This document shows, in pieces, positions 4,789 to 58,695 of a stretch of 64,000 nucleotides of DNA. The stretch lies in assembly GCA_904063045.1 (NCBI GenBank), contig CAJFCJ010000011.1, positions 451,100 to 515,099 of the forward strand, read 5' to 3'. How positions within the stretch are numbered: position 1 is the first letter of the stretch; every line of letters begins with the position of its first letter. The position numbers and the translations under genes were made by a program. The notes beneath the pieces are model-generated. The model did not search any database, was not told the origin of the DNA, and saw only the letters and a program-made list of their open reading frames with translations. The DNA is from Dimorphilus gyrociliatus (Eukaryota > Animalia > Annelida).

Positions 4789-5866
4789 ATGATGAATTCA
4801 ACTATGACGGAAACTTTTCCGTCATATACAGAGATATTAGCAACTTTTTATGGTATTGTAGTTTTATTCGTTTTAGGAAGTTTTGGAAATTTTTTGACAA
4901 TAACAATACTTATTCAAAGTGGAAAATTTGTAAAATCAACAAATATCTTTGTTTTCAACTTAGCAGTTGCAGATCTTGTCGTTTGTTTTACAACTGTTTT
5001 TGATACTGTTTCTTACTATGCTCATGATATAAGTCATTCCGTATGCAAATACGTTATGCCCTTTTATTTTGTCGCTGCTCTTACTTCTCAACTGAATTTG
5101 GCTGTAATTGCTCTAAATAGATATGTGTTTATACTGAAGGCAAGAGACACTTATGAAAAATATTTCTCAGATAAATTATCAATCATTATATGCTTTTGCT
5201 TGTGGATTTTCAATATTCTCTATACTTCTTGGGCCTTCGTATTCACTGAATTTTATTTCGTCAGAGAAAGTTATGCATGTCAACTTAAACATCATGAAAA
5301 TACTAAACATTTTATGGCTATAACTGGGTCGTTATATTTGCTGTTAGATGTTGTTGTAATTGCTGTTATATACTTTTTAATATTTAGAGGAATAGTAAAA
5401 TCTAAAAAGAGGACACAAGTAGATCCTTCAACTGCATCATCTAATATAAACTCAACGAATGGTATGTTTCAGGTTTAGATTTTGTAAATTACTTTTATTA
5501 ATGTAAATTTCTAAGCTGTTCACAGTACATCAAGTCCTGCGAAAATTAAAAGTAAGCCAAAAAGAAAATCTGGTAATCTTAAGCAGATGTTTGCGATATG
5601 GTTCGTTTATGTTATTCTTAGCACCCCCATAGCGATTGAATTCGGAATAAGATCTCAACTTAACGTTCCCTTGCTATATGACAGGTAAACTGTTTGGAAA
5701 ATAAGTAAAAATGCGTGTAATTGTTTGAAAATCAACAGGTTCAGCAATAGCATGCTAAGAACGAATTCAGCTGTTAATGTACTAATCTATGCTTGGACAA
5801 ACACGTTATATAGAAACTTATATAAAGATTTACTTAAGAAGGCTTTCAGCAATCCTTGTGCCTAAG
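4789..5866 (+). CDS. Orphan rhodopsin-like (class A) GPCR, paralog 1; 3 exons (4789-5461, 5516-5684, 5739-5866)
   Basis: 7TM hydropathy with GNFLTITIL (TM1), NLAVADL (TM2), NRY at the end of TM3 in place of DRY, and NSAVNVLIYAW (NPxxY-like, Pro missing) in TM7. Donors G|GTATGT and AG|GTAAAC; acceptors ttctaag and atcaacag keep the frame. Stop TAA at 5864-5866. Confidence 0.8.
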
Positions 5867-23245: not shown

Positions 23246-24452
23246 TCAATCGTCTCTTAGTCCCCATTCAGAAACCTTACGATGAGCTGCTACCATGACA
23301 ACCATTGAGGAACCGTTTGATATGAATGATCGCATGACCCCTGGAAGCAAACCTCTATAAAGTCCAAAAAATCCTCCTCTTGAAGAAAATGTTTCTTTTA
23401 ACCGTTTCCAGCTCGATTGACGCTTGCCATAATCTCCTTGGACTTGAGCTTTCATGTATTCTATTGGCCATACCAAAAGCCATGCCATACTAGCTGCTAT
23501 GCCAGAGGTCAAAAACGGCCCTAGCATTGGTCGGCTGAAGTGCTCTGGAAAGTGTCGTCGACCCGAATCGACGAGAATAAAGTAAGTTGTCATAAGACCG
23601 AGAGTTCGGGTCCACGTGACCGAAAAACCCTACATAAAAAATTGTTTTTTAGAAAATTATATGATTTCATTTATAAATTATATAATTTCTCTTGAAAACT
23701 ACTTACGGTATAAATATTTCGCAATTTCCAACCTTGCTGTGTTTGTCCCCTTATCTAAATAATAGATTCATTTTAATGATAATAAAATAATGAAGCCCAT
23801 GGTTCTCACCTTTACGTACTCCAAAGGCGTTTCAATTATTGCACGCGCTGTAGATCCCAGTAAACCAGCCAAGACTACTCTTCTGTCAAAATATTACATC
23901 CTTAGGTTAATAATAGCTTGAATTAAATTATGATTTTCTTACGTTTGCAATCCAAAAGAACCTGGAATTTCTTTTCTAAACACTGGGTTATCCATATAAG
24001 TATACCTGTAGTGACCCAATATTTTTTAATTTTAGACTAAATTTTACATTTATACTAACGCAGCTTCAAAAACGGCAAACTGGGAAGATCTGTATAAGCC
24101 TGATCCCCAAAGCGGAGGTATACATCCTCTAAAATAAGATAGAATTGTTTAAAGGGATTTATAATTATTATGACTACCTGTATAAACCTCGAATGCCTTG
24201 ATTTTTTAGGGTTTTGAGTAAAGTTTCGAACATTCCTCGTTTTTCGAACCCTTTTTGAGCTTGCATTTTGGTTTTTATTGTATCTAATGGATGACCAACG
24301 GCAACGCTAGTTGTTCCGTATAATATTCCGACTGATGGAAAAGGAAAATTCTTGATAGTTATAAAATCAAATTAAAGTTTGTTCATATTTTTACCTCCTA
24401 ATCCGATTGCCCCTTCTTTGAGCCAATGTCCTCTCTTTTCATTATGAGTCAT
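23246..24452 (-). CDS. Mitochondrial carrier family (SLC25) protein, carnitine/acylcarnitine-basic amino acid carrier-like; ~7 exons
   Basis: MTHNEKRGHWLKEGAIGLGG | ...VAVGHPLDTIKTKMQAQK... (Px[DE]xx[KR] carrier signature), ...RRVVLAGLLGSTARAIIETPLEYVK..., terminal exon with GFFGLYRGLLPGVMRSFISNGSSMVVM. Start ATG at 24450-24452, stop at 23246. Confidence 0.75.
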
Positions 24453-25078
24453 TTTAATGCAGTTTTAAAGAAAATAGCAAATATATAAGTTAATTTGTTT
24501 GCGAAGTGTCAAAAATTTCGAAAGTGTATATTATCGCTCCGATTAAAGTGGAAAAGGAATATATTTTTAAATATGTACAAAACAAACTGGGTTTTGTAAT
24601 AGTTTAAAGATTCTTTTTAGTTTTATAGTTTTATTTCTTTTCGTTGAAAAAAATATCTCTGCTTCAGTTTTATGGTGATCACTGAATCTGATAAGCTCCA
24701 AGATCTTAATAGAATAACAACTCTAATGCCATCTGGCGGATAAGTTAGTCAACAAAATGGCCGCCATCATAAACAATAATAGACAGTAAAACTTGGATTA
24801 ACGTCATGATTACTGCTTCTATAGAAGTAGTAGAACAATGATCACAATATCATAGTTTTAACGTATCGAGAAAACATATTTTTATTGGCGGAAAAAGGCC
24901 ACATTCGAACATAGTCGAAATCTTAATATCAGTCTGTCTTCTGTTCTGTTCGATGAGAAGCCTTATAAATTAGAATACTTTTTAACCCTTCCAGGTAAAG
25001 CATTTATTTTTAAGCCAATTTTTAAGATAACACTTTAAAAATAATATGCACTTCTTCAAAGGATTGTAGTTATGAAAA

Positions 25079-28000
25079 ATGAGCGAAAAAACTCCTGGAC
25101 ATAGTAAAGCAACTCCGATTAAACCTTCGGACTTAAAAAGGCACGTCATTTTCCTCGACGTGCAAGGATATTCGAATTCTTCCAATTTAGAAAAGTATCT
25201 AACGCAACTTGGTGCCAAAATCGACAAATTTTTGTCAAAAGATGTCACATGCGTCGTTACAAATCGCAAGGAAACGAAATCTGATACTAGCCTCGCCGGC
25301 GAAGATGGAATTTACATGTCAAGATCGCAAATTATGCTCAACAAATCGAAAGAAGTGAATAAAAACGCTAAATCAATGAATCCTGTCGAACGAGCTAAAA
25401 AACTAGGAATTCGAATATGTAAATTATCAGAAATTTTGAAGTTGATAAATTCTACTGGTTTAAACAAACGTTCGTCGTCTTCGGAATCTGTTCGCTTTCA
25501 ACACCTAACCGATTGCTTCATAAAAATCGATGATAGCAACAGCGGATTAAAGCCTGTGTACCAAAAATTGTCTAGTATGCCGACGGTAGAGTTAACACGT
25601 TCCGGATCTCCATTCTTAACAACGGAAGATGAAAAGGAGGAGAAAGGAAGTGATAAAAAATCGGAAGTATCGAAAGAAACTAAGACGTTATCAAAAGATA
25701 GTATTTCGGCCGCTTCTACTAAATCTAAACCAACAAAAAAAGAGAGAAAAGCCTCTAAGAAGAAGGAGAACACTTATTGCGAATGTTGTAACACTGTATT
25801 TACTAATTTAGAGGAGCATTTAAAATCCAATGTTCACAAGGCCTACTTAAATTCGAAATCAAATTTCACTAATTTGGAAGAGACGCTCCGGGAGATACCG
25901 ACTGTGGATAGACTTGTTGAAGAATCTCAGAATAAGCGCGTCAAAACAAAAGGTGCTATGAAATTTATGCAAAATCCTCAAATTCTAGCCGAGCTAAACG
26001 ACGTCAGTGAGAAACCGGAGGAGAAACAGTCGAAAAGAAATAGTATTGTCGTGACGGAAAAGAATGGAGAATTATTTAGCTCTGAGATACGTGCTACCGT
26101 TATAAAATGCTCACCCGCTAAAGAGGGGAAATCTCCGACTCGTGCATTTAAGGAGCATGATAAGCGTTCATCGTCTTGTGAATCCAGAAAGCAGAAGGAA
26201 AGGAAACATCAAAAATCTGATTTGAACTCATCTAGGCAAAAAGAGAAAAGAGAAGATAATAAGGTTAAAGAACGAAAGAAATCCGAGAGATCACAAGGTG
26301 GAAAGGAAAAATCTAGTCAGGAAAGTGAAACTGATAGAAAAAGTAATCAAAAGGCTCAAAACGTTCTTCGTCGGGTAATAGATGACGACTCACTAATTTC
26401 TGCCATTTTAAACGAGAAGGCTTCTGAAAATTGTTCTATATGGCGTAGACCAACTACCAAGGTCAATTACAAATCGCCTGATAATTTTGATTGGCCGGAT
26501 AAGGCAGAGAAGAAGCCTAAGAAAAGTCCTGCGAATGATTCCAAATCTAAGAAGAGGAGTAAGAGCTCAAAGGATACTGATAAGAAAGACAAAATTCAGC
26601 GTTCAACTCCACCTTTCGACAAAACTGCAGATAATTCAAAGTCTTCATCAAAGTCTGGCGGATCTAAGAAAGGCAAAATAGGCACCGATAATGATGATGA
26701 AGTAATTAGTTTTAAAAAGAAATCGAAATCAAAATTGGATACGTCGTCAGAGGTCGAAAAAAGTCCGAAAAAGAAGCCCAAGCCAAAAAGAATTCGAATA
26801 ACTTCTAGTAGCAGTAGTTCCGAGGCAGAAAATAATGAAGAAGAAAAAGTTCCGGAGAAAACTGCTGAAATAAAAATCCCTTTCTGTTGGGATGATTTCA
26901 ACTCCAGTGAAAGCGATGATTCAGACTCAGATTGGTCAGAAGCTGAGAAAAAGAAATCTAAAGCTAAGAAAAAATCAAAACGTCATCCCCCAGCATCAAA
27001 GAAAGATAAAACTGCTCTTATTTCATCACCGCGGAGTAAAAGAGATAATAGTGAGGCTGATGCTTTCCTTCGCCGTAAGGAACTAATGGCTAATCAACCA
27101 AAAAAGAAGTCCAAGGGGAAAAATTTAGCTAATTATGAAAAGTATGTTAAGAAAGTAGAAGAAGAGGAAAAGAATTCAAAGAAGAAAAAAGAACCTGCAA
27201 AAACGGAAGTTTCTCTTCCAACTCCCATGAAAAATTGTAGCTTACAGTTTGACTCTTCTGACGATGAAACACCAAAAATCGACATGAATACTCTATTAAA
27301 CTTCGATAAAGATTCATCTCCATCAAATTCACCTGACTTTTTAGATCAATCTCCCCTTATACCTGATGATGCCTATTTAAATGATGTCTTGAATCATCTG
27401 GGTTCAATTGAAGATAATAATGAAACACCTTCAGAGACACCTATAAGCAGTGTTCCTCCAGCAACGCCATCGTCACAAAGGGTTCCCCAGCAGACTCCAA
27501 ATTACGTACCGTCTACTCCAGCCGAGTGCGATCAGCCTATGTCTGTCGAGACCTTTTGTGCTCCATCTGTCTACGCATCCCAGACTCCTGATTATGCGGC
27601 AACACCTTATTCCGTGCCACCTGGCTCAGTCGCCCAGCCTCCATCGATCCCAATGCAAGATCCAATGACTCCTTGCCCTATTGTCACCAAAAGTCATGTG
27701 ACAAATGCCGACTTTGAGGAGACACTAGAAATGATTGATGACTTTCAGAGAAAGGAAAATGTCACTGCTTTAACAGTTGAACAGCAAGAGATTTTGAATT
27801 CATCTTTGAATTTTTTGAATGAGCCTTTAGATGGGGCAGGTCAAATAGCTAACAATGAACAAGAGTTTCATGATCTGGAATTGGTTCTTGAGGGCCTATC
27901 TCATAGTAACGCTCCCCCAACAACTTCTTTAAGGGAAGAGTCTATCGAAAAAATACTATGTTTAAATGAACAGAAAAAAGAAGTTGTTGAAGAACCAAAA

Positions 28001-30742
28001 CAAACATCTGAAACTTTACATTCTGAATCAACTGATATTTCTGACGACGAGCACGAGTTCAATTTGGCTAGCGAACATAATCGTCGCTCGTCGCAACTTG
28101 CTAGTCCATCTTCATCTTCCATTGACGAACTGAAACAAGATGTAGAGGTAACAGAGAAAACAGAAGTAAATGAATTAAAAGAAGTATCTGAATTAAAGGA
28201 AGTAAATGAGTTAAAGGAATTAAATGAAATTAGGAAAGATAGGGAATTCAAGGACGTTAGTGATATAAAAGAGACAGAGAAAGCGGAAGAAACACCTGTG
28301 AAATTTGAACAAAGTGAAAAAGAACAATCAAATGCACCCGTTATTGATTTGGCAAAAGTTGCTGAGGAAGTCGGAATCAGTGAATCAATTGATGAAGGAC
28401 ATGCTGAAGCTCAAAGGCCCATTGAAACGCCATCATCTGCCTTTCCCATGCAAGAAGTTTTGAACATGGCTCCAATTCATCAACAATCTGCTTTTGAACC
28501 TCCACCACCTCATCCTCCAGTTCAGTTTTTTCCAATGCAACCTGGATCTAACTTACATCCATTACCTCAGAACTTTTTGGCAAATCAATCACTTATACAG
28601 CCGAATTTTAATTACAAGCTGAATTTAATATCAAAACCAACTGATTTGGTTAATCAGATTCAGCGACCTCCGCCGACAGTTACTACTGCTTCAATTCCTA
28701 CTTCTGCTGTAACGCCCCTTAGTGAACAATTACCTGTTGCCCATTCATTATCTCATCATAGTCATCCCCTACCGCACTACGATCTTCGACCCACTTTGCC
28801 TTTAAAGCAAGCACCCTTCGACTCAATGAAGATGGATTTAAACGCTCATATGATGCAGCAATCTACAGTCGTCCAGAATCTTATGAGACAACAAAGTGTT
28901 ACGCCACAGCCACCAAAAAAGGCCGCTGCAGCTGTAGAGAAGAAGCGATTAGCGGCCGAGAAACTGAAAAACGCAGAAGATAACTCTGGGGACAGCAGCA
29001 AGTATTCAACTATAGACGAAGGAATTTGTCAGCAGTTAGACTTAGGTGTTTTTGGCAACGAAAGTATAAACATCCAAAAAGAACCAGAGAGACCCATAAG
29101 TCCTATGAAATTACCTATGGAATCTCCAAAATCAAGAACTCCCCTTGCAGGTCCCATCTACTCGCCAGTCACTCCTGCCGAACCTTCCCCGAAACCTCTC
29201 CCTAAATCCTCCACTGATTCTCCTGCAAACAAATCAGACGAAAAGTTAGAAACACAAATCGAAACACAGAAGAATATTATACAAGAAACAACCAAAGAAA
29301 GGGAAATATCCTCTCCACCTCCCCGTCCACCCTCCCCTCCCCCTCCCGAGCCCTCTATCCCCAAGACCCTCTCAGTCCCCATTGCAGTTCCTAAAACCAT
29401 ACCCTCAGTAGATCCATCACCTTCACAGAATGTTCCTTCAGTAGCTACCTCGACAGTTGTTGCTGAAATTGAGCATAAATTAGACGTAACAAACCCTTCG
29501 AAGAAAGGTGGTTTAGATAGCATTATATCTAAAATTGAAGCCACAAATGTGAAACGTAAAGAAACACCATCAACTCCAAAAGCTGAGTCAAAAATTATCG
29601 CCGATAATAACCTACCGTCTAGTCACAAGCGAAAGGCATCCACACCTCAACGCCGAAAGAGCTGTCACGAAACGCTCTCAGGAAGCCAATTTACATTTCC
29701 TAAATACTTTATTCCTCCTTCGCCAGAGCCACCGCCCAAGCCATCCGCTTCAAGCGAAATATGTAAGCCCTTAAAGAAACGGCATTTACAATTGGCTGAA
29801 TATTTTGAACAAACGGAAACGAAGGAAGATACAGTTGAAAAAGAAAAACCACAAGTGAAAATTGAAAGGCGTCAAACGCGATCATCTACGAGATTGCAAA
29901 CGGAAGCCGTTAAAGAAAAAGAGAAGTCGAAGCCGAAAGTTTCTGAAAAGCCTACATGTAGTAAAAAGAAGGAAAAAGAAGAGAGGCCAAAGCCTCAGTC
30001 TGTTAAAAAAATTCCTCCCAACCTCACTGAATCGTCAAACGATGATGTTCTAGTCAAGGTTACGGTAGCGTCAGCAAATAAACTTAAGATAAAGCGGTTT
30101 GTGAAGAAACCGAAAAACTCTCTTTCAACCAATGAATCCTCCTCACCGACCAAGCCTAATAAGGCGGAACAAAAGGAGGATATTTACGATTTTGATAAGC
30201 AATCCGACGTTATCGAAACAATTGCTGTAAAAGGTCAGCAGACTCCGCAGCCGAATCCGCTACCAATTCCACAATTGAATCCCCAGACGCTTGTCATGCC
30301 TAAACTTAAAATAAAACGTATTAACTCTGATACGCCTGAAGGTAGTACGGATGATTATGAAATTGAGAAAAATGATGGTGAAGTTTCAGAAAAAGTAGAA
30401 AAGATGGCTGGTAAAAGAAAACGCCATAAAGAACATAAAAAGAAGAAAAAACGTCGAAAGTCAGCGGAATCACAGTCTATTTTAGAAACAACTGAGGGTA
30501 TTAAATTGACTATTAAAACTGTAAAGCCGCCAAATGACTTAAAAGAACCTACGGTGGAAAATAACGCCGGAAGTGGTATAAAATTAAAAATTAAGCTGCC
30601 AAAAAACGGGGAACATTCGGGGAGTGAGGGGGTAGAACGAAGATCGAAAAAACATCGTAAACGAAGGCCCTTCGAAGATGACGACGACCAAACGTCCATC
30701 GAGAAGAAGCATAAATTAGATTATATCCGCTCTATACTTTGA
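25079..30742 (+). CDS. DBF4: Dbf4-type zinc finger protein (Dbf4/ASK/Chiffon-like CDC7 activator) with ~1600-aa low-complexity C-terminal extension; single 5664-nt exon
   Basis: N-terminal BRCT-like motif-N (KRHVIFLDVQGYSNSSNLEKYLTQLGAKIDKFLSKDVTCVVTN). Dbf4-type zinc finger YCECCNTVFTNLEEHLKSNVHKAYLNSKSNFTNLEETL matches the zf-DBF consensus YCExC...F..L..H..S..H. The remainder is K/E/S/P-rich with NLS-like KKKKRRK stretches. No motif-M was recognised by eye. Confidence 0.7.
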   Translation: MSEKTPGHSKATPIKPSDLKRHVIFLDVQGYSNSSNLEKYLTQLGAKIDKFLSKDVTCVVTNRKETKSDTSLAGEDGIYMSRSQIMLNKSKEVNKNAKSMNPVERAKKLGIRICKLSEILKLINSTGLNKRSSSSESVRFQHLTDCFIKIDDSNSGLKPVYQKLSSMPTVELTRSGSPFLTTEDEKEEKGSDKKSEVSKETKTLSKDSISAASTKSKPTKKERKASKKKENTYCECCNTVFTNLEEHLKSNVHKAYLNSKSNFTNLEETLREIPTVDRLVEESQNKRVKTKGAMKFMQNPQILAELNDVSEKPEEKQSKRNSIVVTEKNGELFSSEIRATVIKCSPAKEGKSPTRAFKEHDKRSSSCESRKQKERKHQKSDLNSSRQKEKREDNKVKERKKSERSQGGKEKSSQESETDRKSNQKAQNVLRRVIDDDSLISAILNEKASENCSIWRRPTTKVNYKSPDNFDWPDKAEKKPKKSPANDSKSKKRSKSSKDTDKKDKIQRSTPPFDKTADNSKSSSKSGGSKKGKIGTDNDDEVISFKKKSKSKLDTSSEVEKSPKKKPKPKRIRITSSSSSSEAENNEEEKVPEKTAEIKIPFCWDDFNSSESDDSDSDWSEAEKKKSKAKKKSKRHPPASKKDKTALISSPRSKRDNSEADAFLRRKELMANQPKKKSKGKNLANYEKYVKKVEEEEKNSKKKKEPAKTEVSLPTPMKNCSLQFDSSDDETPKIDMNTLLNFDKDSSPSNSPDFLDQSPLIPDDAYLNDVLNHLGSIEDNNETPSETPISSVPPATPSSQRVPQQTPNYVPSTPAECDQPMSVETFCAPSVYASQTPDYAATPYSVPPGSVAQPPSIPMQDPMTPCPIVTKSHVTNADFEETLEMIDDFQRKENVTALTVEQQEILNSSLNFLNEPLDGAGQIANNEQEFHDLELVLEGLSHSNAPPTTSLREESIEKILCLNEQKKEVVEEPKQTSETLHSESTDISDDEHEFNLASEHNRRSSQLASPSSSSIDELKQDVEVTEKTEVNELKEVSELKEVNELKELNEIRKDREFKDVSDIKETEKAEETPVKFEQSEKEQSNAPVIDLAKVAEEVGISESIDEGHAEAQRPIETPSSAFPMQEVLNMAPIHQQSAFEPPPPHPPVQFFPMQPGSNLHPLPQNFLANQSLIQPNFNYKLNLISKPTDLVNQIQRPPPTVTTASIPTSAVTPLSEQLPVAHSLSHHSHPLPHYDLRPTLPLKQAPFDSMKMDLNAHMMQQSTVVQNLMRQQSVTPQPPKKAAAAVEKKRLAAEKLKNAEDNSGDSSKYSTIDEGICQQLDLGVFGNESINIQKEPERPISPMKLPMESPKSRTPLAGPIYSPVTPAEPSPKPLPKSSTDSPANKSDEKLETQIETQKNIIQETTKEREISSPPPRPPSPPPPEPSIPKTLSVPIAVPKTIPSVDPSPSQNVPSVATSTVVAEIEHKLDVTNPSKKGGLDSIISKIEATNVKRKETPSTPKAESKIIADNNLPSSHKRKASTPQRRKSCHETLSGSQFTFPKYFIPPSPEPPPKPSASSEICKPLKKRHLQLAEYFEQTETKEDTVEKEKPQVKIERRQTRSSTRLQTEAVKEKEKSKPKVSEKPTCSKKKEKEERPKPQSVKKIPPNLTESSNDDVLVKVTVASANKLKIKRFVKKPKNSLSTNESSSPTKPNKAEQKEDIYDFDKQSDVIETIAVKGQQTPQPNPLPIPQLNPQTLVMPKLKIKRINSDTPEGSTDDYEIEKNDGEVSEKVEKMAGKRKRHKEHKKKKKRRKSAESQSILETTEGIKLTIKTVKPPNDLKEPTVENNAGSGIKLKIKLPKNGEHSGSEGVERRSKKHRKRRPFEDDDDQTSIEKKHKLDYIRSIL
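28164..28232 (+). repeat. Coding tandem repeat, ~4 x 18 bp (gaagtaaatgaattaaaa variants) encoding VNELKE/VSELKE/VNELKE/LNEIRK
   Basis: Direct reading of the sequence within the DBF4-like ORF. Confidence 0.6.
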
Positions 30743-31860
30743 CAAGAAAAATAGGAAAAAAGACGCCGACAGAGTACTAACACAGTATTTTTTTAGAAGA
30801 TGGGAAAAGAAGAATAGTTTTGTATTCGAGATCCTGGTGAGGAATAAGGGGAAAATAGTCGCTCCTTTTTCCTTTTATTTTATTTTTCTTCTGTGTGTAC
30901 GTCTGACCGTTTACAGTCGCTTTAGCTGCTATTTTCGTTCATTAGTTATTGTTATTCTAAAAAGAGGAATAAATTCTTCGTATAGAGATGTAAATAAACG
31001 TAAAAAGTTCCATATGCTGAAAACAAACAAATACATCAATATTTAATAAATACAAATTTTATGAAAGAAACTTTCTCATTCTGACTATTAGTCGAAAATT
31101 ATCGATCTGTCTAAAGCCTCTGAAATTGTTAATTTACAGATAAATATCGGGTTACAGGGAAAAAGGAAAAGAATTTACCTTGTTTCCCAGTCTAGTGTTT
31201 CATTTCTACAAAGCTAAGTATGTTTAAGAACATTTAAAGAATTAATACTAGTGTATAAACACCATGCGCATGTTAGCTTTCTCCCTTTGGTTTAGTCATA
31301 TTAAAGAAGCCCGAAGAAAATTTCTCTGATCTTGCAGTACAAAGAATATTGCGATTGAAGAAGAAAGAGAGAAAGAATACAATTACTTAAAAAATGACCG
31401 CAATAGAGAGAGCATCGAATAAGACAACTAATAGTTTGCCTGTTAAGCCTATAAATATAAATTGAGTTTTATTCTTTACAAACTTAGGCATATATTCGTT
31501 AATGAAATAAAAAAAATAACTCAATTCATGTTATACCTTCGTTAAAGGAAAGCTCAAGATCATGAATAAAATAGATCATTGTTTGTTTTATAATTATCTT
31601 AAAGAGTTATTCGATCATGTAAAAACAGCATCTAATTCTCTCGCTATAGCTTCTTTGGGTTGACTTTGATTACTACAGCAAAATCCGAATGATCCGCTTC
31701 AATTTCAATACAAAAAAAAATTTTTTTTCTCTCTTTCGAAGAGAGAATGATAAAGGAATAAAATGGGTTAAATTTAGTATTACGCTTTTAAATAAATCCA
31801 TTTTGATGATTTGGTTATGTCAACAACAACACATATTTAATTTCCATGTTCAGTTTCCAT

Positions 31861-39102: not shown

Positions 39103-40225
39103 ATGTATACTTTGAACAGAGATAAAATAATAATGGAGAAAGTTTCCAATAGTAGTGAAACTATCTTTCCCCTATATAGTAACATTATAGCTGATGTTTA
39201 TGGTATAGCCGTCATTTTTTGCTTGGGTTCTTTGGGAAATTTCCTTACAATTATAATTCTCCTTCACAAAAGAATATTTCATTTGTCAACAAATATTTTC
39301 ATCTTTAATTTGGCTCTAGCTGATGGTTTTATATGCTTAATTAATGTTTTTCATACTATAGCTTACTATTATTCTGCCATTCATATTCAAATTTGCACCG
39401 TTTATACTGTTGTATTTATATCTTGTGCAAATATTTCACAGTATAGTTTAGCTTTAATTGCAATAAATAGATATTTTTTTGTATTAAAAACCCAAGAAAA
39501 GTATGAAAGTTTATTTTCCTGTAAGCTTTGCTGGGTGTGGTGTATTTCTTTATGGTTTCTGTCTTGGTGCATTGGTCTTTCAACTCTATTTCTCGCATAT
39601 TTTAATTTTGATCGTAAGTCTCATTCTTGTAAAGTGAAAAATTATTCCGAAATGAAAACATTTCTTCTTATTAATTCTGTCTGTTGTTTCGTAGTAAATG
39701 TTCTATTAATAGGTATTTTCTATTTAAAAATATATAATGGGATAAGAAAATCTAGAACCAGAGTTATGTCTCTTGCAAATACACTACAAATCGTATCCTC
39801 ATTAACTTCTCAGAAAGGTAAATTAGTAAATAGATTTTTATAAATGATCTATATTTAATAAGGAAGTATACTGCAGCTATAAATCAGATGAAAAGTAATG
39901 ACAGTATAACTATGAAGAAGAGAAGATCAGCGATAAAAGAGATTAATCAATTTTTTTTAATATGGTTTTTATATGTATTGTTTATATTACCAATTATAAT
40001 TGATGTTATACTGAGACGGACTAGTACTGTACCCTACATTTACGATCGGTTTGATCTTTTTCATTAAACTATTGACTGCTGTTCAAGTTATTATTTTGCA
40101 GTGTAAGCTATAACTTACTTCGAACGAACTCTACCGTGAATATAATGATATATGTCTGGAATAATAAACAGCTTAGAAAAATCATGAAAGAGCTTTTTTT
40201 TAATAAGGTATGCAAAGCTATTTAA
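39103..40225 (+). CDS. Orphan rhodopsin-like GPCR, paralog 2; 3 exons (39103-39817, 39877-40048, 40102-40225)
   Basis: IIADVYGIAVIFCLGSLGNFLTIIILLH / NLALADGF / INRY / ...LIWFLYVLFILPIIIDVILRRTSTVPYIYDR / RVSYNLLRTNSTVNIMIYVW aligns along its length with GPCR-1 (4789). Intron phases are identical (1, 2), donors G|GTAAAT and CG|GTTTGA, acceptors ctgcag and ttttgcag. Confidence 0.8.
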
Positions 40226-46121: not shown

Positions 46122-46841
46122 ATGGGAGGCTGTTCATCTATTTCCTGTATAGATAGTCTTCTATTTCAGAATAACAATTCACTGACACCTATGTCGCCAA
46201 ATAGACTGGCTAGAGCAAGAAGAAGAGCATCTCAAGCTCCTCCTTCGTTTTCATCTCTGCCTCTCAATGAGAGAGAGGTTATAAAGATGGCTCGGACGTG
46301 GAGAACAATTCAGAGGCAAATGACTAGAGCAGGAAAGCTCATGTTCATACGAATGTTTGAATCGAGTGATGCTGTTCGTTCAACTTTCGAGCAGTTTCGA
46401 TCTGTGGATCAAGTTTCTGATTTGTGGACTAGCAAATCATTAGAGAATCATGCCATGATTGTTATGAATGCCTTAGATGAGGCATTTAGTAATTTGGAGG
46501 ACGAAGAATATGTTGTCGATTTATTACTTATTAATGGTCTATCTCATAGAAGATTCGTTAGTATGACGGCAGCTGTATTTTGGGTAAGTAAAAAGATAAT
46601 CCCATTCAACGTTCTTTCAAGTCTCTCTAATTAGAATTACTCTTTTCTCGTAAAAAAAAAGTCAGTTGAAGAACCTTTTCTATTAGCGATAAAAGAGATT
46701 CTCGAAGATAAGTATACCGCATCTACCGAAGCCTTATTTCGCAAGACAATAAAGTGGGTGCTTGAGATATTAATATTTGGTTTTGAAAGTTCAAATGCTG
46801 AAAGATTTGTCAATAAAAAGGATGAAATTAACTTCATGTAA
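46122..46841 (+). CDS. Globin with N-terminal acylation motif (globin X / nematode-type membrane-tethered globin-like); 2 exons (46122-46583, 46662-46841)
   Basis: MGGCSS... (Gly2 myristoylation consensus MGxxxS plus adjacent Cys), ~45-aa extension, then globin fold: REVIKMARTWRTIQRQMTRAGKLMFIRMFE (A/B helices), ENHAMIVMNALDEAF (distal His), GLSHRRF (proximal His). GTAAGT donor after ...AVFW. Exon 2 SVEEPFLLAIKEILEDKYTASTEALFRKTIKWVLEILIFGF (G/H helices). Confidence 0.65.
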
Positions 46842-51592: not shown

Positions 51593-54500
51593 ATGTTTAA
51601 AAAATTAAAGCAAAAAGTGCAGGAAGGAGTGAATACTGGTAGTCAGATTCTCCAACAAAGTAAAAATAACATTTTAAACAGGGTAAGAGCTTTATCGTCT
51701 GCTAATTCAACTTGTTTCGCTCAGTTCTAAAAGTATCAATAATTTTCTCTAGGATATTTCTGCCAGTCAGGAAAAGGTTTGTATTAAGTTTAAAATATTT
51801 TCTCATACATAATGGAAGATTATAGATCTCTGAAAGACAATATGATCAAGTTTCAAAAGAACAAAGTAGCACCCATGGCCCTTTAATCAACATAGGGGTA
51901 TGTTGCTGAATACTTTTAAAGTAATAATTGACAAATCTATAATTTTAGGATACATCTCAGCATTCTGTAGATTCTAACCCAGCAATACCCCAGCAAAATC
52001 ATCCTGATGGGGATCTTGTTGAATTGAATGTAAGAGCTAAGTGCTTTCCTTGGAATAAACTAATTATATATCCTACAGGAACCACCAGCAACTTTGGATT
52101 TGAGTGGACAGAATTATTTTGCAGATAGTGATGTGAGTTTTCTAACGACTGACGAAAAAAAGGCGCAAATACCTCGTTCAAGAACCGATTCAATTTCGTC
52201 GCAAGCTTCTGACCAATTTTTCGGTATTCCTATTTCTCCGTTCACCCATACACACATGCCTTTAGCCAGTGATGTTGAAAGCACCGCAAGTGAGGTTAGT
52301 GCTATTTTTAGCTTCAGATCAATTTAATTAATATTTGAACGTTTTTATTTGCCATATGTGAAATATTAAAATTATCTTTGTTGTTTAATTTAATATTATT
52401 TTTTTGTCTAAAATTTCAGATTGATGATTCTTCTGTGAAGAGTTTCGGAACGTTAAGTAAAGAACAAATATTGAATAATTATGCGAAAATTGTAAAGAGA
52501 TGCGAAAAATATAAAATAAGATTTAAACGAGTAAATTTCTGTTTTTGACTATTTAAAATTGAGGTGATTAATTGTAATTTTTTGCTATAGCTAGCTGAAG
52601 CTTATCGAGAAACAGAAAAGGAACGGGAAAAATTACAAAATGTACTCACTGCTTCACAAGATAAGGCAATCAGAAAAATATCAGAATTTAAAGAACAAGC
52701 AAAACTAGACGCTCTAGCCAAACGAGATATACAACAAAATTATGAACTACTGTTAGAAGAAAAAGATGAATATATCTTTGTTTTAAAAACTCAGATTGGA
52801 CTATTAAAGGAAGGACAATCAATTCCTGATGATTTGCAAGCTAAAACTGAGTCAGTTGAGAAGTCGACGGCAGTGAAAGAAGAAAAAGCTAAATCTCTTA
52901 TGAGTGGGTCAGAACAAGCAGCTGATGTATCCTTGAAAGAATATTCTGATAGAGTGAAAAAATTGGAGAATTTATTGGGAAAATGTAAAGAAACCATACA
53001 GCAAAAACGAGTGGAATGCGCTCGGTTAAATCAAGATAAAGAAGATATTGAAAATAAACTACGAACTCTTCAAGAAGAAAATGAACAATTAAGAGTTTGT
53101 GAAGTTGACACGAAGAAAAAAGTTCAAAAGCAGTTATTAGATGCTCGTCAGATAATGGAAGAATTGGAAAGTAGTAAGGCAATGGCAGTTGCTGAAGTAA
53201 AAGCCGAATTACACTCTCAACTACAGATCACTGATGAAGAATTATCGAAAACAAGGGAAACTTTTAAAATTGCACAAAAAGAAATTGAGAATTTACAGGA
53301 AGCGAACTCCAAATTAAAGCAGTCATTCACAGAACAGTTGGAAAAAGCAAAATCTATAATATCTCGACTAAAGAATGAAAAAGCTCAGTTGAAGGAGGAT
53401 TTGCAGACAAGACTTGAGACATCTGAACACTCTTTAGACGAAGAAAAAGAAACTGTAGTACATGAACTGAAAAGAGCGAAAACACAAGCTTTGGAAGTGA
53501 TGCAAAGTGAACATGATGAACAAATAAAAATAATGAAAGATTGCCATAATAAGGAACTGAATGAATTAAGAGAAAAATTGACTGAAGAATTTAATGAAAG
53601 AGATATATTAAATCAAAAGCAGTTGGAGGAAGCAAAGCTTCAAATTGAAAAAGCCATTCAAAACAAACAGGATGAACTTAGTAAATTGTTAATTGAGAAG
53701 GACGAAGAATGTAGAAGAATGTTACTTGAAAAAAATGATGAAATGAGGCTAGCACTTGAAGAGAGGGAATTGCGAAAAATGGCTGTTGTATCCAAACAAG
53801 ATGAAGAAAACGATGTTCTGAGTGCAAAAATAGCTCATTTAGAAACGACTAACTTACAGCTAGAACAAGATATGAATGATTTGAAAGAAAAGCATAAACT
53901 CGAAATTGAAAAATTTGTTTTCAAAATTGAAGAAAATGCTACACGAAAAGCGGAAGATTTATTAGAAGTAAACAGAAAGCATGAAGAGGAACTAGAAAAT
54001 TCTAAGAGGTCGATCGAAGAGAGTTTTGAACTGAAATTTATGGAAATGGGACAGAGTAGAAAAGATGAAATAGACACTTTAGTGGCAAAATACGAAGAAT
54101 TACTCAGAAATAATTCATCTGAATTGGATAATGACTATGGAAAGCAGATGGAGATACTGAAAACTCAAAATAATCAAGCACTTGGCGAACTGCAATCATC
54201 TCTCAATCAATCTTCACGAAGAGTGAATGAATTAATCAGTGAAAACGAAGAACTAAAGGAGAAAATAAAAACAAATGAGCATGACTTAGAAGAGACAGTG
54301 GAAAAACATTCAAGTGTCTTATCCAGTTTGAACGAAAAACTTCGAAGTAGCTCGGAAGATTATGAAAAGTTAATGAAAGAATATAATAATTTACAATCTC
54401 AGCACAAAGAAAAATTAGATGAATTAAATTCCAATATACAAGAGCATGTTACGACTAATGAAAAGTTAAGAAACACTGTTTCAGAGTTGGAAAATAATTG

Positions 54501-57500: not shown

Positions 57501-58695
57501 ACTAAAGTCATTAGTTAAACAGTTAAAATCTGAGAATGAAAGAACAGAGAAACAAGTAGAAATTTTGAAGAAAGAACATGAATCAGCCATCCAAAAACTC
57601 ATGCGAGAAAATGAAGAACAAGTAGAAGATATGAAGAACGAGTGTAGCAGCCAATTAAAAATGATTTTGAAAGAATACAATTCACAATTGGATCAAAAGG
57701 AGAACGAATTCCAAGAAAATTATGGAAAAACTATAGAAAACTCACAGTTAGAGCAAGAAAAATTGCAGAGAGAGCATTTACAAGAAGTCGATGATTTACA
57801 CAAGGAGCTTAATGAAAAAGATAAAAGAATGGAAGAAATGTTTAATGAACATGAGCTGCAATTACAAATGAGAGATGATGAATTTGAAGAAAAGATGCAA
57901 GGAACCGAAAAACGTATTTCAGATTTAGAAAATGCTATCGGAGTTAAAGAACAGGAAATAAATTTGTTAAAACTATCTAATATGAAGGTACCAAACTAAA
58001 TGATATATTTGTAATCATAAATTTAGATGTTTACCTTCTAGGCTCTATCAGAGAAAGATCAAGAAGTTACAGACATAAGAAATCAACTAGAAATTATTAA
58101 AATGCGCCTAGAAGGATCGGAAACAGAAAGTTCTCTATTAGAAAATCCAGAGGGAACCCCAGAACACAACTTAGAAGTCGAAAATATGAATTTACACGCA
58201 AAAGTTAGACATTATCAAGGTGAACTTGCTCAATTAAAACTAAAAGAAAAAGGCATAATTCAACAAGTAAGAGAACAAACATGTAAAAATTTCCCCACTA
58301 ATATTCCTTTTAATAGGGTAGCGATTTGCCCTCTGCTCTAAATCATCAAGCTTATTTTTCGAATGAGCCAGTCCTTACTGAACAAACAAAGATGGAATAT
58401 ATGCGCAATGTTTTGTATGAATATATGATGGGATCTCACACCAAAGTAATAGGAATTTATGAAAACTATAAATGTTAATTTCTTATTCAAATATGTATTT
58501 TCACAGACCCTATCAAAAGTTCTTTGTGAGTTATTGCATTTCTCCAAAGAGCAAACAAGAAAAGTTGTAGAGAAAGAAGAGTCTCGATCAATAGTAAGTC
58601 ATTAAGTTTTTACATATTCCGCAAGGTTAAGCTAATTGTCAAACAAACAAAACAAAAATATTTTAAAAAATCTGTAATTATTTTACTAGACCTAA
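51593..58695 (+). CDS. GOLGA4: Golgin-245 (golgin subfamily A member 4 / trans-Golgi p230) homolog: N-terminal MFKKLKQK motif, ~1800-aa coiled coil in one 5.4-kb exon (52591-57987), C-terminal GRIP domain; ~12 exons
   Basis: Exon 1 MFKKLKQKVQEGVNTGSQILQQ (human GOLGA4 begins MFKKLKQKISEE). Small exons with GTAAAA, GTTTGT, GTAAGA, GTTAGT, GTAAAT donors. Giant exon of E/K/L/Q heptad-rich sequence. 45-bp intron 57988-58032 containing the in-frame TAA. GRIP exons (A)YFSNEPVLTEQTKMEYMRNVLYEYMMGSHTK and TLSKVLCELLHFSKEQTRKVVEKEESRSI match human GEPTEFEYLRKVLFEYMMGRETKTMAKVITTVLKFPDDQTQKILEREDAR. Final 2-codon exon T*. Confidence 0.85.

What the first reader, a model, noticed from the sequence alone, without database searches (positions are those of the whole stretch)
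25079..30742. Dbf4-type zinc finger protein with a ~1600-aa Chiffon-like low-complexity extension encoded by one 5.7-kb exon
The N-terminal 260 aa carry a BRCT-like motif-N and an unmistakable zf-DBF (YCECCNTVFTNLEEHLKSNVHKAY).
The remaining ~1600 aa are K/E/S/P-rich, with basic clusters, a PPPPHPP stretch, an 18-bp tandem repeat (VNELKE x4) and many SP/TP sites.
Canonical Dbf4/ASK proteins are 600-700 aa. A long C-terminal extension is known from insect Chiffon, where it recruits Gcn5 into the CHAT acetyltransferase complex.
No motif-M was recognised. The zinc finger also sits N-terminal of the long tail rather than near the C-terminus.
Basis: partly seen in the sequence, partly recalled or inferred. 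Interest (0 to 1): 0.55.

Follow-up and report, generated by a model that had tools for sequence, protein, structure and literature searches.

The report
Annelid Dbf4 with giant private tail
This is the gene for Dbf4, the activator of the Cdc7 DNA-replication kinase, in the miniature marine worm Dimorphilus gyrociliatus; it carries a ~1600-residue, mostly disordered tail that resembles fly Chiffon in layout only, with no detectable sequence similarity, so it is a curious variant of a well-known protein.

Summary
Window 25079-30742 (+) is one uninterrupted 1887-aa ORF. It is identical to GenBank CAD5119836.1 / UniRef A0A7I8VWB1, "DBF4-type domain-containing protein", from Dimorphilus gyrociliatus, an annelid and not an insect.

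The first ~275 aa carry all three Dbf4 motifs in the canonical order:
- BRCT-like motif N: marginal.
It aligns to human DBF4 motif M.
- zf-DBF, motif C: 40-44 bits against a cutoff of 24.8.

The ~1600-aa tail is real coding sequence. A relative's ortholog (82% identity, dS ~1.2) keeps the whole frame, with dN/dS 0.07. The tail is mostly disordered and has no Pfam domain. An exhaustive HMMER search of 1.84 billion proteins found no homolog outside that relative. The published tail motifs of insect Chiffon and vertebrate DBF4 are absent.

"Chiffon-like" therefore describes architecture: N-M-C, then a long tail, in one coding exon. Homology is not shown and Gcn5 recruitment is unsupported.

The tail has conserved blocks, enriched S/T-P sites, and four conserved K-L-x-I-K motifs. 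One of these is an exact IKLKI, a known BET ET-domain ligand. This suggests, speculatively, a chromatin-tethering scaffold.

Interest is modest: a new variant of a known kind.

The parts
24727..24994 (+). Highly conserved promoter / 5'UTR-exon block. It holds TGGCGG (24734-39), ATGGCCGCCATC (24757-68, YY1-like) and TTGGCGGAAAAA (24885-96, E2F-like with one mismatch). It ends at a conserved CAG|GTAAAG splice donor.
   Evidence: The block is 91% identical to the relative's locus L001 over 285 nt, and 96-100% over 24750-24824. The adjacent intergenic DNA is 40-60% identical, and synonymous sites in the CDS are saturated. The transcription-factor assignments are my reading of the sequence and were not tested.
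24995..25069 (+). Probable 5'UTR intron of 67 or 75 nt. The acceptor AG lies at 25060-61 or 25068-69.
   Evidence: The GT donor and AG acceptors are conserved, while the interior drops to 44-52% identity. The size fits the species' median intron of 66 bp (PMC7854359). No transcript data were available.
25072..25104 (+). Out-of-frame upstream ATG, 7 nt before the main ATG. It opens a 10-codon uORF (MKNERKNSWT*) that overlaps the start of the CDS.
   Evidence: Read directly from the sequence. It is conserved in L001. Any function is unknown.
25079..30742 (+). Complete Dbf4 coding sequence: 1887 codons plus stop, in one exon.
   Evidence: ORF list. Exact match to CAD5119836.1 / UniRef100_A0A7I8VWB1 of Dimorphilus gyrociliatus. 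Ortholog P0001 is 82% identical over 100% of its length. dN/dS is 0.07 overall and below 0.25 in every 100-codon bin that could be computed; dS was saturated (nan) in two bins, 901-1000 and 1101-1200. Indels net to multiples of 3.
25133..25441 (+). Motif N: BRCT-like domain, aa 19-121.
   Evidence: On aa 1-135 scanned alone, Pfam BRCT scores 22.2 bits (cutoff 21.3) and PTCB-BRCT 22.9 bits (cutoff 22). In the full-length scan BRCT scores only 19 bits. The AlphaFold model was too poor to test the fold, at pLDDT 34.
25499..25618 (+). Motif M, aa 141-180: the segment expected to bind the Cdc7 C lobe.
   Evidence: It aligns to human DBF4 motif M in 4F99_B. Pairwise BLASTP gives E=7e-7, with 30% identity and 58% positives over 40 aa. 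Human motif M is residues 210-254 and wraps the CDC7 C lobe (PMC7416108).
25766..25891 (+). Motif C: DBF4-type CCHH zinc finger, aa 230-271, followed by the conserved NF..LE..L helix.
   Evidence: Pfam zf-DBF scores 40-43.6 bits against a cutoff of 24.8. It aligns with human, Xenopus and insect fragments.
25949..27028 (+). Tail segment 1, aa 291-650. It is lysine/serine-rich and basic (net charge +30), with NLS-like clusters and an acidic-aromatic patch at aa 601-625.
   Evidence: Composition and charge. Predicted disordered. 68-94% identical to P0001.
27029..28078 (+). Tail segment 2, aa 651-1000. This is the most conserved part of the tail. It is acidic, S/P/T-rich, and carries acidic-hydrophobic motifs (DAYLNDVLNHL, ETLEMIDDF, EFHDLELVLEGL).
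   Evidence: 92-100% identical to P0001 per 50-aa bin. dN/dS is 0.02-0.05 in bins 601-900. Net charge is -31. No Pfam family reaches threshold.
28079..28528 (+). Tail segment 3, aa 1001-1150. Variable and glutamate-rich, it includes the 18-bp tandem repeat at 28162-28228 (VNELKE-type units) and PPPPHPP.
   Evidence: TRF finds period 18 with 3.7 copies. Identity to P0001 is 44-54%, and the repeat is absent from P0001.
28529..29578 (+). Tail segment 4, aa 1151-1500: proline/glutamine-rich and near neutral.
   Evidence: Composition. 52-80% identical to P0001.
29579..30739 (+). Tail segment 5, aa 1501-1887. It is basic (net charge +31), with strong NLS-like runs (KRKRHKEHKKKKKRRK, KKHRKRR) and four K[LI]xIK motifs: aa 1668 (30080-30094), aa 1742 (30302-30316), aa 1809 (30503-30517) and aa 1835 (30581-30595, within GIKLKIKL).
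   Evidence: All four motifs are conserved in P0001. Shuffles give 0.07-0.18 expected, but the pattern was chosen post hoc. For the literature-defined motif Phi[+]Phi[+] there are 4 observed against 0.65 expected in this segment (P=0.006). Over the whole protein that enrichment is not significant (P=0.157). IKLKI is the BRD4 ET-domain-binding motif of WHSC1/WHSC1L1 (PMC6375729). No Pfam family matches.
30899..31150 (+). Conserved 3'UTR block with three AATAAA signals.
   Evidence: 92.5% identical to L001 over 254 nt, which is higher than the CDS at 81%. There is no significant RNA structure (z=-1.0) and no Rfam match.

Best explanation
This locus is the Dbf4 gene of the annelid Dimorphilus gyrociliatus. 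[quoted passage not shown]

Shown:
- The first ~275 residues contain the three family motifs in canonical animal order and spacing: a BRCT-like motif N, motif M, a ~50-residue linker, and the CCHH zf-DBF motif C.
- The whole 1887-codon CDS is one exon.
- The same architecture, under strong purifying selection, is present in a relative.

Inferred from the human CDC7-DBF4 structures: motif M binds the Cdc7 C lobe and motif C the N lobe. This switches the kinase on so that it phosphorylates MCM2-7 at replication origins.

The remaining ~1600 residues are a lineage-restricted, mostly disordered tail. It is not detectably related to insect Chiffon-B or to vertebrate DBF4 tails.

My inference is that this tail acts as a scaffold of short linear motifs that localises and regulates DDK on chromatin. 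The candidate motifs are:
- nuclear localisation clusters;
- enriched S/T-P phospho-sites;
- a very conserved acidic-hydrophobic block (aa 651-1000);
- four C-terminal alternating hydrophobic/lysine motifs of the kind bound by BET ET domains.

This would be functionally analogous to the human DBF4 tail (LEDGF binding) and the fly Chiffon tail (Gcn5 binding), but evolved independently.
For: Identity and organism:
- Exact match to CAD5119836.1, D. gyrociliatus, phylum Annelida.

Family motifs:
- zf-DBF scores 40-44 bits against a cutoff of 24.8.
- Motifs M and C align to human DBF4 4F99_B at E=1.7e-6. Motif M alone gives E=7e-7.
- BRCT is just above its gathering cutoff on aa 1-135.
- The roles of M and C in CDC7 activation are described in PMC7416108.

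The tail is coding and constrained:
- dN/dS is 0.07 with dS ~1.2, and indels net to multiples of 3.
- Conserved blocks are 92-100% identical.

The tail is disordered and domain-free:
- Charge-hydropathy analysis.
- No Pfam family.

The tail is lineage-restricted:
- P0001 was the only hit among 1.84e9 representatives and in the 5.8e9-protein index.

Candidate motifs:
- [ST]P sites are enriched, 42 against 27.6, P=0.002.
- Four K[LI]xIK motifs are conserved.

Precedents for replication factors tethered by tail motifs:
- ASK/DBF4 binds the LEDGF IBD (PMC7835958).
- TICRR binds the BET ET domain (PMC5859964).
- Chiffon-B binds Gcn5 (PMC9796610).
Against: - No biochemical or transcript data were available.
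- A CDC7 ortholog in this genome was not checked. None lies in the window.
- Whether this is the only Dbf4 gene in the genome is unknown.
- BRCT support is marginal: 19 bits in the full-length scan, below the cutoff.
- The AlphaFold model of aa 1-300 was uninformative, at pLDDT 34.
- Every function assigned to the tail rests on short-motif matching, which has a high false-positive rate.
- The K[LI]xIK pattern was defined after seeing the sequence. The literature-defined motif is not enriched over the whole protein (P=0.157).
- Very high conservation of aa 651-1000 is unusual for a purely disordered linker. It may hide a fold or a binding-coupled domain that I could not detect.
Confidence: 0.72

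Rival explanations
1. True Chiffon ortholog in the functional sense. On this view the tail is a highly diverged homolog of insect Chiffon-B that binds Gcn5 and nucleates a CHAT-like histone acetyltransferase complex.
For: - The layout matches Drosophila Chiffon: 1695 aa, motifs N/M/C within the first 350 aa, a long tail, and all coding sequence in one ~5-kb exon (PMC9796610).
- The tail has acidic-hydrophobic blocks like the activation-domain-like blocks described in Chiffon-B.
- D. gyrociliatus has a kat2a/b (gcn5) ortholog (PMC12153100).
- Chiffon-B is only 9-20% identical between insect orders, so a negative sequence search is weak evidence against deep homology.
Against: - The host is an annelid. 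The extension is reported to be conserved only in insects.
- The Gcn5 interaction was detected only for Diptera, according to the abstract and introduction of PMC9796610.
- Exhaustive phmmer of aa 688-1887 found no insect protein.
- Profiles built from published non-dipteran and dipteran Chiffon-B motif fragments score no better than against shuffled sequence.
- The insect motif FxFExVP..W and the C-terminal RWYRER-type ending are absent. I deduced that ending from the published primers.
Confidence: 0.06
2. The tail's C-terminal K-L-K-I-K motifs are functional ligands. They would bind a BET-protein ET domain, or the similar beta-strand-capturing AHD of AF9/ENL, and so tether DDK to acetylated chromatin. 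This is a specific version of the scaffold idea.
For: - GIKLKIKL contains the exact IKLKI motif mapped as the BRD4 ET ligand in WHSC1/WHSC1L1. NKLKIKRF and PKLKIKRI also fit the published Phi[+]Phi[+] class (PMC6375729). GIKLTIKT deviates, with T in place of the second basic residue, and was not counted by the Phi[+]Phi[+] pattern.
- All four motifs are invariant in P0001, whereas the sequence between them varies.
- The motifs cluster in the last 220 residues: 4 observed against 0.65 expected, P=0.006.
- There is a precedent in TICRR, a replication initiation factor that binds the BET ET domain (PMC5859964).
Against: - The motif is short and degenerate, and sits in a lysine-rich region.
- Enrichment over the whole protein is not significant (P=0.157).
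- The stricter pattern was chosen post hoc.
- Presence of a BET protein with an ET domain in D. gyrociliatus was not verified.
- No binding data or complex model exists. The motifs could equally be NLS or DNA-binding elements.
Confidence: 0.15
3. Bifunctional 'two proteins from one ORF' gene, as in Drosophila chiffon. On this view the N-terminal Dbf4 part and the tail are produced or used as separate polypeptides with independent functions, through internal initiation or processing.
For: - Drosophila chiffon makes Chiffon-A and Chiffon-B from one exon by uncharacterised translational mechanisms.
- Here an out-of-frame uATG lies 7 nt upstream of the main ATG, which implies leaky scanning.
- Synonymous sites are unusually conserved at codons 41-80 and 1361-1400, which could mark embedded regulatory elements.
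Against: - There is no direct evidence.
- The ORF is continuous, and selection is uniform across the junction region.
- No conserved internal start context was identified.
- The synonymous-site peaks are based on ~35 codons each and may be noise.
Confidence: 0.08
4. Gene-model or assembly artefact. On this view two neighbouring genes, a short Dbf4 and an unrelated low-complexity protein, are fused into one ORF, or the tail is non-coding.
For: - The tail has no homologs and no domains.
- Low-complexity AT-rich sequence can sometimes stay open by chance over short stretches.
Against: - The 5.66-kb frame is open in two independently assembled genomes, and also in a second Logan assembly of the relative.
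- dS is ~1.2 but dN only 0.086, and every 100-codon bin that could be computed has dN/dS < 0.25 (dS was saturated in two bins). Indels net to multiples of 3.
- The deposited gene model, built with transcript evidence (PMC7854359), equals the ORF.
- There is no stop codon or diverged gap at the zf/tail junction.
Confidence: 0.02
5. A zf-DBF protein that is not a Cdc7 activator. The model is vertebrate ZDBF2, which as I recall has a DBF4-type zinc finger followed by a very long disordered region encoded mostly by one large exon.
For: - It has a zf-DBF plus a very long, largely domain-free tail in one exon.
- N-terminal similarity to other Dbf4 proteins is weak. The word-indexed search with aa 1-300 returned nothing.
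Against: - Motif M is present and collinear with motif C in the alignment to human DBF4.
- A BRCT-like motif N precedes them.
- These motifs are the features that define Dbf4 proper.
- The ZDBF2 architecture is recalled from memory and was not checked here.
Confidence: 0.04

Closest known systems
Animal Dbf4/ASK (human DBF4A; class II Dbf4 in the Matthews & Guarne scheme as cited in PMC9796610)
   Same: - Motifs N (BRCT-like), M and C (CCHH zf-DBF) occur in the same order near the N-terminus, with a short disordered M-C linker and then a disordered tail.
- The zinc-ligand spacing is identical to human DBF4 by my count on the alignment.
   Different: - The protein is 1887 aa, against about 600-700 aa for canonical Dbf4 (from memory; PMC9796610 says only that Chiffon is nearly double the vertebrate size).
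- The tail is ~1600 aa and lacks the vertebrate FxGF LEDGF-binding-type motif.
- The coding sequence is a single exon.
Drosophila Chiffon and insect class III Dbf4 (Chiffon-A/DDK plus Chiffon-B/CHAT)
   Same: - Overall architecture and size class: 1695 aa against 1887 aa.
- The whole CDS lies in one ~5-kb exon.
- The tail contains acidic-hydrophobic blocks.
   Different: - The host is an annelid, not an insect.
- There is no detectable sequence similarity in the tail.
- The insect tail motifs are absent, and no AT-hook is present.
- Gcn5 binding and a two-polypeptide output are untested.
ZDBF2 (vertebrate DBF4-type zinc-finger protein 2); comparison from memory
   Same: It has a zf-DBF followed by a very long, low-complexity region encoded largely by one big exon.
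   Different: The annelid protein also has motif M and a BRCT-like motif N. That places it with Dbf4 proper.
BET ET-domain ligands (WHSC1/NSD3-type IKLKI motif; TICRR/Treslin C-terminus)
   Same: - The tail has short alternating hydrophobic/basic motifs in a disordered region, including an exact IKLKI.
- TICRR is a replication initiation factor that uses the ET domain to reach acetylated chromatin.
   Different: - Only motif-level resemblance exists.
- No homology, no binding test, and the partner protein was not verified in this species.

Membership tests
Dbf4/ASK family (DDK regulatory subunit) | Motif C: DBF4-type CCHH zinc finger (Pfam PF07535) | tested here: met
   The match scores 40 bits (E=4e-10) in the full-length scan and 43.6 bits on a fragment, against a gathering cutoff of 24.8. 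It covers aa 230-271. The spacing is C-x2-C-x9-H-x5-H, as in the aligned human DBF4 sequence.
Dbf4/ASK family (DDK regulatory subunit) | Motif M upstream of motif C, separated by a short linker | tested here: met
   A single phmmer alignment of aa 141-260 to human DBF4 4F99_B spans motifs M and C, at E=1.7e-6. Motif M alone gives BLASTP E=7e-7 one-to-one. Alone against the whole PDB it is not significant, at E=0.6.
Dbf4/ASK family (DDK regulatory subunit) | Motif N: BRCT-like domain near the N-terminus | tested here: inconclusive
   PF00533 scores 19 bits in the full-length scan, below the 21.3 cutoff. On aa 1-135 it scores 22.2 bits, and PTCB-BRCT scores 22.9 against a cutoff of 22. The fold was not confirmed, because the AF2 model had pLDDT 34. 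No BRCT-domain structure was hit significantly in PDB; the only BRCT-protein hit, S. pombe Rad4 (4BMD), had E=1.4.
Dbf4/ASK family (DDK regulatory subunit) | Binds and activates Cdc7; a Cdc7 ortholog is present in the same genome | not testable with these tools
   No tool searches the D. gyrociliatus genome. No Cdc7-like ORF lies among the window's larger ORFs.
Insect Chiffon / class III Dbf4 (CHAT-forming) | Long C-terminal extension roughly doubling protein length, with the CDS in one exon | tested here: met
   The protein is 1887 aa, with ~1600 aa after motif C, in one ORF.
Insect Chiffon / class III Dbf4 (CHAT-forming) | Sequence conservation of the extension with insect orthologs (conserved tail motifs) | tested here: not met
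   An exhaustive search of aa 688-1887 returns only the dinophilid ortholog. Profiles of published insect motif fragments score no better than against shuffles, and regex checks for the motifs are negative. Caveat: only published fragments of Chiffon were available, not full sequences.
Insect Chiffon / class III Dbf4 (CHAT-forming) | Occurs in insects | tested here: not met
   The host is Dimorphilus gyrociliatus, Annelida, Dinophilidae.
Insect Chiffon / class III Dbf4 (CHAT-forming) | The tail binds Gcn5, and N- and C-terminal products are made separately | not testable with these tools
   This needs yeast two-hybrid, pull-down and proteomic experiments. The only related fact is that the species has a gcn5 ortholog.
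BET ET-domain-binding short linear motif (WHSC1/L1-like, Phi[+]Phi[+]) | Sequence match to the motif in a disordered region, conserved in orthologs | tested here: met
   Phi[+]Phi[+] matches start at aa 1669, 1743, 1834 and 1836, including an exact IKLKI. The related GIKLTIKT (aa 1809) deviates from that class. All are conserved in P0001. The region is predicted disordered. The motif definition comes from PMC6375729. This is a weak criterion: whole-protein enrichment has P=0.157.
BET ET-domain-binding short linear motif (WHSC1/L1-like, Phi[+]Phi[+]) | Physical binding to an ET domain | not testable with these tools
   No complex prediction or binding assay was available. Presence of a BET ortholog in the species was not checked.

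The most novel reading that the evidence does not exclude
Long-tailed 'class III' Dbf4 architecture arose independently outside insects. In dinophilid annelids the DDK activator would have acquired its own ~1600-residue disordered tail. The conserved motifs of that tail include four ET-domain-type K-L-K-I-K ligands and a near-invariant acidic block. These would couple the replication kinase to chromatin readers or co-activators, in convergence with fly Chiffon-Gcn5, human DBF4-LEDGF and TICRR-BET.
Probability: 0.15. Interest if true: 0.55.

Novelty: new variant of a known kind. Interest (0 to 1): 0.3.

Why it matters
Dbf4 tails are where different lineages attach the replication-initiation kinase to chromatin or to other machines. 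Vertebrates use LEDGF, and flies use Gcn5 in the CHAT complex. The literature treats very long Dbf4 proteins as an insect peculiarity.

A worm Dbf4 with an even longer, unrelated but strongly constrained tail shows that this architecture is not confined to insects. It gives a second, independent case for asking what such tails do.

In practice, the result corrects a tempting mis-annotation ("Chiffon-like, Gcn5-recruiting"). It gives a bare "DBF4-type domain-containing protein" entry a full N-M-C motif map. If the tail turns out to be a mere lineage-specific disordered appendage, the finding is ordinary.

Tried and rejected
- **Word-indexed homolog search, full protein.** It returned only the close relative, because low-complexity words saturated the candidate list.
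- **Same tool, aa 1-300.** It returned nothing, not even the relative, so it is uninformative.
- **Same tool, motif M+C profile.** The profile was seeded with human, Xenopus and insect fragments. It returned only short, unnamed fragments and no full-length Dbf4 or Chiffon. I could not build a length survey or a full Chiffon-B profile.
- **Supplementary alignments of PMC9796610.** They are not held as text.
- **AlphaFold2 of aa 1-300 with a two-sequence alignment.** pLDDT was 34. I therefore ran no fold search and did not spend a second job on the tail.
- **PDB search with aa 1-135.** It gave no significant BRCT hit.
- **Pfam on the two best-conserved tail blocks.** Nothing reached threshold.
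- **Profiles of published tail motifs.** The insect FxFExVP..W motif, the dipteran activation-domain block and the vertebrate FxGF/IBM motif are all absent.
- **AT-hook search.** None found.
- **Rfam and tRNA scans of the window.** Both empty.
- **RNA folding of the ultra-conserved 5' and 3' blocks.** Not significant, at z=-1.9 and z=-1.0.
- **Literature search for the relative's run accessions.** No paper found, so the species of P0001 remains unidentified.
- **Considered and rejected.** Insect origin of the window (refuted); fused-gene artefact; ZDBF2-like protein without Dbf4 function (motif M and BRCT are present).


Full report
**What is there**

It stands out by composition: 39.8% G+C, in a window that is mostly 25-33% G+C.

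An exact-sequence look-up shows that the protein is already deposited. It is GenBank CAD5119836.1 / UniRef100_A0A7I8VWB1, named "unnamed protein product" and "DBF4-type domain-containing protein", from Dimorphilus gyrociliatus, on a 1.30-Mb contig. This species is a miniature annelid of the family Dinophilidae with a compact 73.8-Mb genome and a median intron of 66 bp (PMC7854359). The host is therefore a spiralian worm, not an insect.

Neighbouring ORFs are ordinary animal gene fragments: rhodopsin-type GPCRs, an INTU/CCZ1/HPS4 longin protein, an oxysterol-binding protein, a mitochondrial carrier and a globin.

**The N-terminal part is a complete Dbf4 core**

- **Motif C.** Pfam zf-DBF matches aa 230-271 with 40 bits (E=4e-10) against a gathering cutoff of 24.8. 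On a fragment it scores 43.6 bits. The ligand spacing, C-x2-C-x9-H-x5-H, is the same as in the aligned human DBF4 sequence.
- **Motif M.** The motif-M pairing is CFIKIDDSNSGLKPVYQKLSSMP against PFVKVEDMSQLYRPFYLQLTNMP. The motif-M segment alone gives BLASTP E=7e-7 in a one-to-one comparison. It would not be found alone in a database-wide search (E=0.6).
- **Motif N.** The BRCT-like motif is marginal. It scores 19 bits in the full-length scan, below the 21.3 cutoff. When aa 1-135 are scanned alone, BRCT scores 22.2 bits over nearly the whole model and PTCB-BRCT scores 22.9 bits. A two-sequence AlphaFold model was too poor, at pLDDT 34, to test the fold.

In the human CDC7-DBF4 structures, motif M (residues 210-254) wraps the kinase C lobe and motif C (292-347) wraps the N lobe. 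A disordered linker of ~34-37 residues separates them (PMC7416108). The worm protein has the same order, with a ~50-residue K/S/E-rich linker.

The position of the zinc finger ahead of a tail is the normal animal arrangement. Only fungal Dbf4 has motif C at the extreme C-terminus (PMC9796610).

**Gene structure**

An in-frame TGA at 25073-25075 lies immediately upstream of the ATG, and no AG lies between them. No upstream coding exon can therefore join the frame.

Upstream, a 285-nt block (24727-25010) is 91% identical to the relative's locus. It ends in a conserved CAG|GTAAAG donor. Then come ~67-75 diverged nucleotides and a conserved acceptor just before the ATG. This looks like a non-coding first exon plus a typical short intron.

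So the CDS is single-exon, as in Drosophila chiffon, but the gene probably is not. The deposited gene model came from a pipeline that used transcript alignments, and it has exactly this CDS. I had no RNA data to confirm this directly.

**The tail is real, constrained and private**

The only homolog found is P0001. It is 1850 aa and 82% identical over the full length. It comes from Logan assemblies of runs SRR23372228 and SRR23372229, in a syntenic context with the oxysterol-binding protein and mitochondrial carrier genes upstream. Its species is unidentified.

Codon-level comparison gives dS ~1.2, dN 0.086 and dN/dS 0.07 overall. Every 100-codon bin that could be computed is below 0.25, and two bins had saturated dS. 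All indels net to multiples of three. This rules out a non-coding tail or a fused-gene artefact.

Conservation is uneven:
- aa 651-1000: 92-100% identical.
- aa 1501-1600, 1651-1700 and 1851-1887: about 90-97% identical.
- aa 1001-1150: 44-54% identical. This region includes the 18-bp VNELKE repeat at 28162-28228, which the relative lacks.
- aa 1401-1450: 52% identical.

By composition the tail divides into five segments:
- aa 291-650: basic, K/S-rich, net charge +30.
- aa 651-1000: acidic, S/P-rich, net charge -31.
- aa 1001-1150: variable, E-rich.
- aa 1151-1500: P/Q-rich.
- aa 1501-1887: basic, net charge +31.

Charge-hydropathy analysis calls most 60-residue windows of the tail disordered. 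No Pfam family reaches threshold anywhere in it.

**Is it Chiffon-like?**

The literature describes Drosophila Chiffon as follows:
- It is 1695 aa, with N, M and C motifs in the first 350 aa and one ~5-kb coding exon.
- Its C-terminal region, Chiffon-B (aa 1243-1695), binds Gcn5 and forms the CHAT complex.
- The gene yields two polypeptides (PMC9796610).
- The extension is said to be conserved only in insect orthologs (PMC8917357).
- The Gcn5 interaction was detected only in Diptera, according to the abstract and introduction.

I tested homology in three ways.
- **Exhaustive search.** phmmer of tail residues 688-1887 against 1.84 billion cluster representatives returned one protein with E<=0.001, the dinophilid ortholog.
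- **Motif checks.** Regular expressions for the non-dipteran insect motif (F-x-F-E-x-V-P..E.W-[YF]-x-T-[YF]), for the C-terminal RW[YL] ending, and for the vertebrate F-x-G-F motif found nothing. I deduced the RW[YL] ending from the published primers.
- **Small HMMs.** Profiles built from the published Chiffon-B and DBF4 tail fragments scored no better on the worm protein than on locally shuffled versions.

The resemblance to Chiffon is therefore architectural only. The caveat is that Chiffon-B is just 9-20% identical between insect orders, and I could not obtain full Chiffon sequences. Very deep homology is undetected rather than excluded.

**What the tail may do (inference)**

[ST]P sites are enriched in the tail: 42 against 27.6 +/- 4.4 in shuffles. 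Strong NLS-like runs lie near the C-terminus.

The near-invariant block at aa 651-1000 contains acidic-hydrophobic motifs of the general kind noted in Chiffon-B and other co-activator-binding regions.

The last 220 residues carry four K[LI]xIK motifs: NKLKIKRF, PKLKIKRI, GIKLTIKT and GIKLKIKL. All four are identical in the relative. IKLKI is precisely the motif mapped as the BRD4 ET-domain ligand in WHSC1/WHSC1L1, and it defines the Phi[+]Phi[+] class (PMC6375729).

There are three precedents for such tethering:
- The replication initiation factor TICRR uses the BET ET domain to reach acetylated chromatin (PMC5859964).
- Human ASK/DBF4 binds the LEDGF IBD (PMC7835958).
- Fly Chiffon-B binds Gcn5.

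I therefore favour a model in which the tail is a lineage-specific scaffold of short motifs that localises or regulates DDK on chromatin.

This is weakly supported. The strict pattern was chosen after seeing the sequence. The literature-defined motif is enriched only within the C-terminal segment (P=0.006), not across the whole protein (P=0.157). No partner was verified in this species, other than the presence of a gcn5 ortholog.

**Verdict**

- **Observation:** confirmed.
- **Interpretation:** partly supported. The Chiffon and Gcn5 reading is not supported, and the organism is an annelid.
- **Database status:** the entry already exists under an automatic name. The motif map, the evidence that the whole tail is constrained coding sequence, its restriction to dinophilids and its candidate motifs are additions.
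- **Classification:** a new variant of a known kind, of modest interest.
- **Open questions:** whether this genome encodes Cdc7 (not checked, no tool could search it), the lengths of other spiralian Dbf4 proteins, transcript structure, and any separate tail product.

Noticed in passing
window 24727-25010: A 285-nt block just upstream of the Dbf4 start is 91% identical to the relative's locus, and 96-100% over 24750-24824. The surrounding intergenic DNA is 40-60% identical, and synonymous sites in the CDS are saturated. The block contains TGGCGG, ATGGCCGCCATC (YY1-like), TTGGCGGAAAAA (E2F-like) and a near-perfect palindrome, CTGCTTCTATAGAAGTAG. It probably serves as a shared divergent promoter with the mitochondrial-carrier gene, whose first exon lies at ~24393-24453 on the minus strand.
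   Followed up: partly
window 25072-25104: An out-of-frame ATG lies 7 nt upstream of the main start. It opens a 10-codon uORF that overlaps the Dbf4 initiation codon and is conserved in the relative. The main ORF would then need leaky scanning.
   Followed up: no
window 30899-31150: A 3'UTR block is 92.5% identical to the relative, which is more conserved than the coding sequence (81% nt). It has three AATAAA signals, no significant RNA fold (z=-1.0) and no Rfam match.
   Followed up: partly
window 25199-25318 (codons 41-80) and 29159-29278 (codons 1361-1400): Synonymous sites are unusually conserved here: 92% and 88% identical codons, against 62% on average. This may mark embedded nucleotide-level elements, or it may be sampling noise, since each bin has only ~35 codons.
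   Followed up: no
window 52834-57999 (+): A second giant uninterrupted ORF of 1721 aa lies here. It is glutamate/lysine/leucine-rich and looks like coiled coil, with no Pfam match. Multi-kilobase single exons are therefore not unique to the Dbf4 gene in this region.
   Followed up: partly
window 4789-5478 (+) and 39103-39843 (+): Two similar rhodopsin-family GPCR exons lie ~34 kb apart on the same strand. Both begin with comparable N-terminal sequences and are likely paralogs.
   Followed up: no
protein collection (cluster of the window protein): In the 90% identity clustering, the 1887-aa protein is represented by a 45-aa JGI/IMG fragment (P0003). This is why the homolog search did not return a self-hit. 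Any scan that relies on cluster representatives will miss this protein.
   Followed up: yes
window 46122-46634 (+), 62736-63708 (+): A globin-domain exon lies at 46122-46634, with Pfam Globin E=9e-7. At the window's end lie ORFs that I read as Cys-loop (nicotinic-type) receptor exons. That reading is from the translation only and was not scanned against Pfam. Both look like ordinary neighbouring genes.
   Followed up: partly
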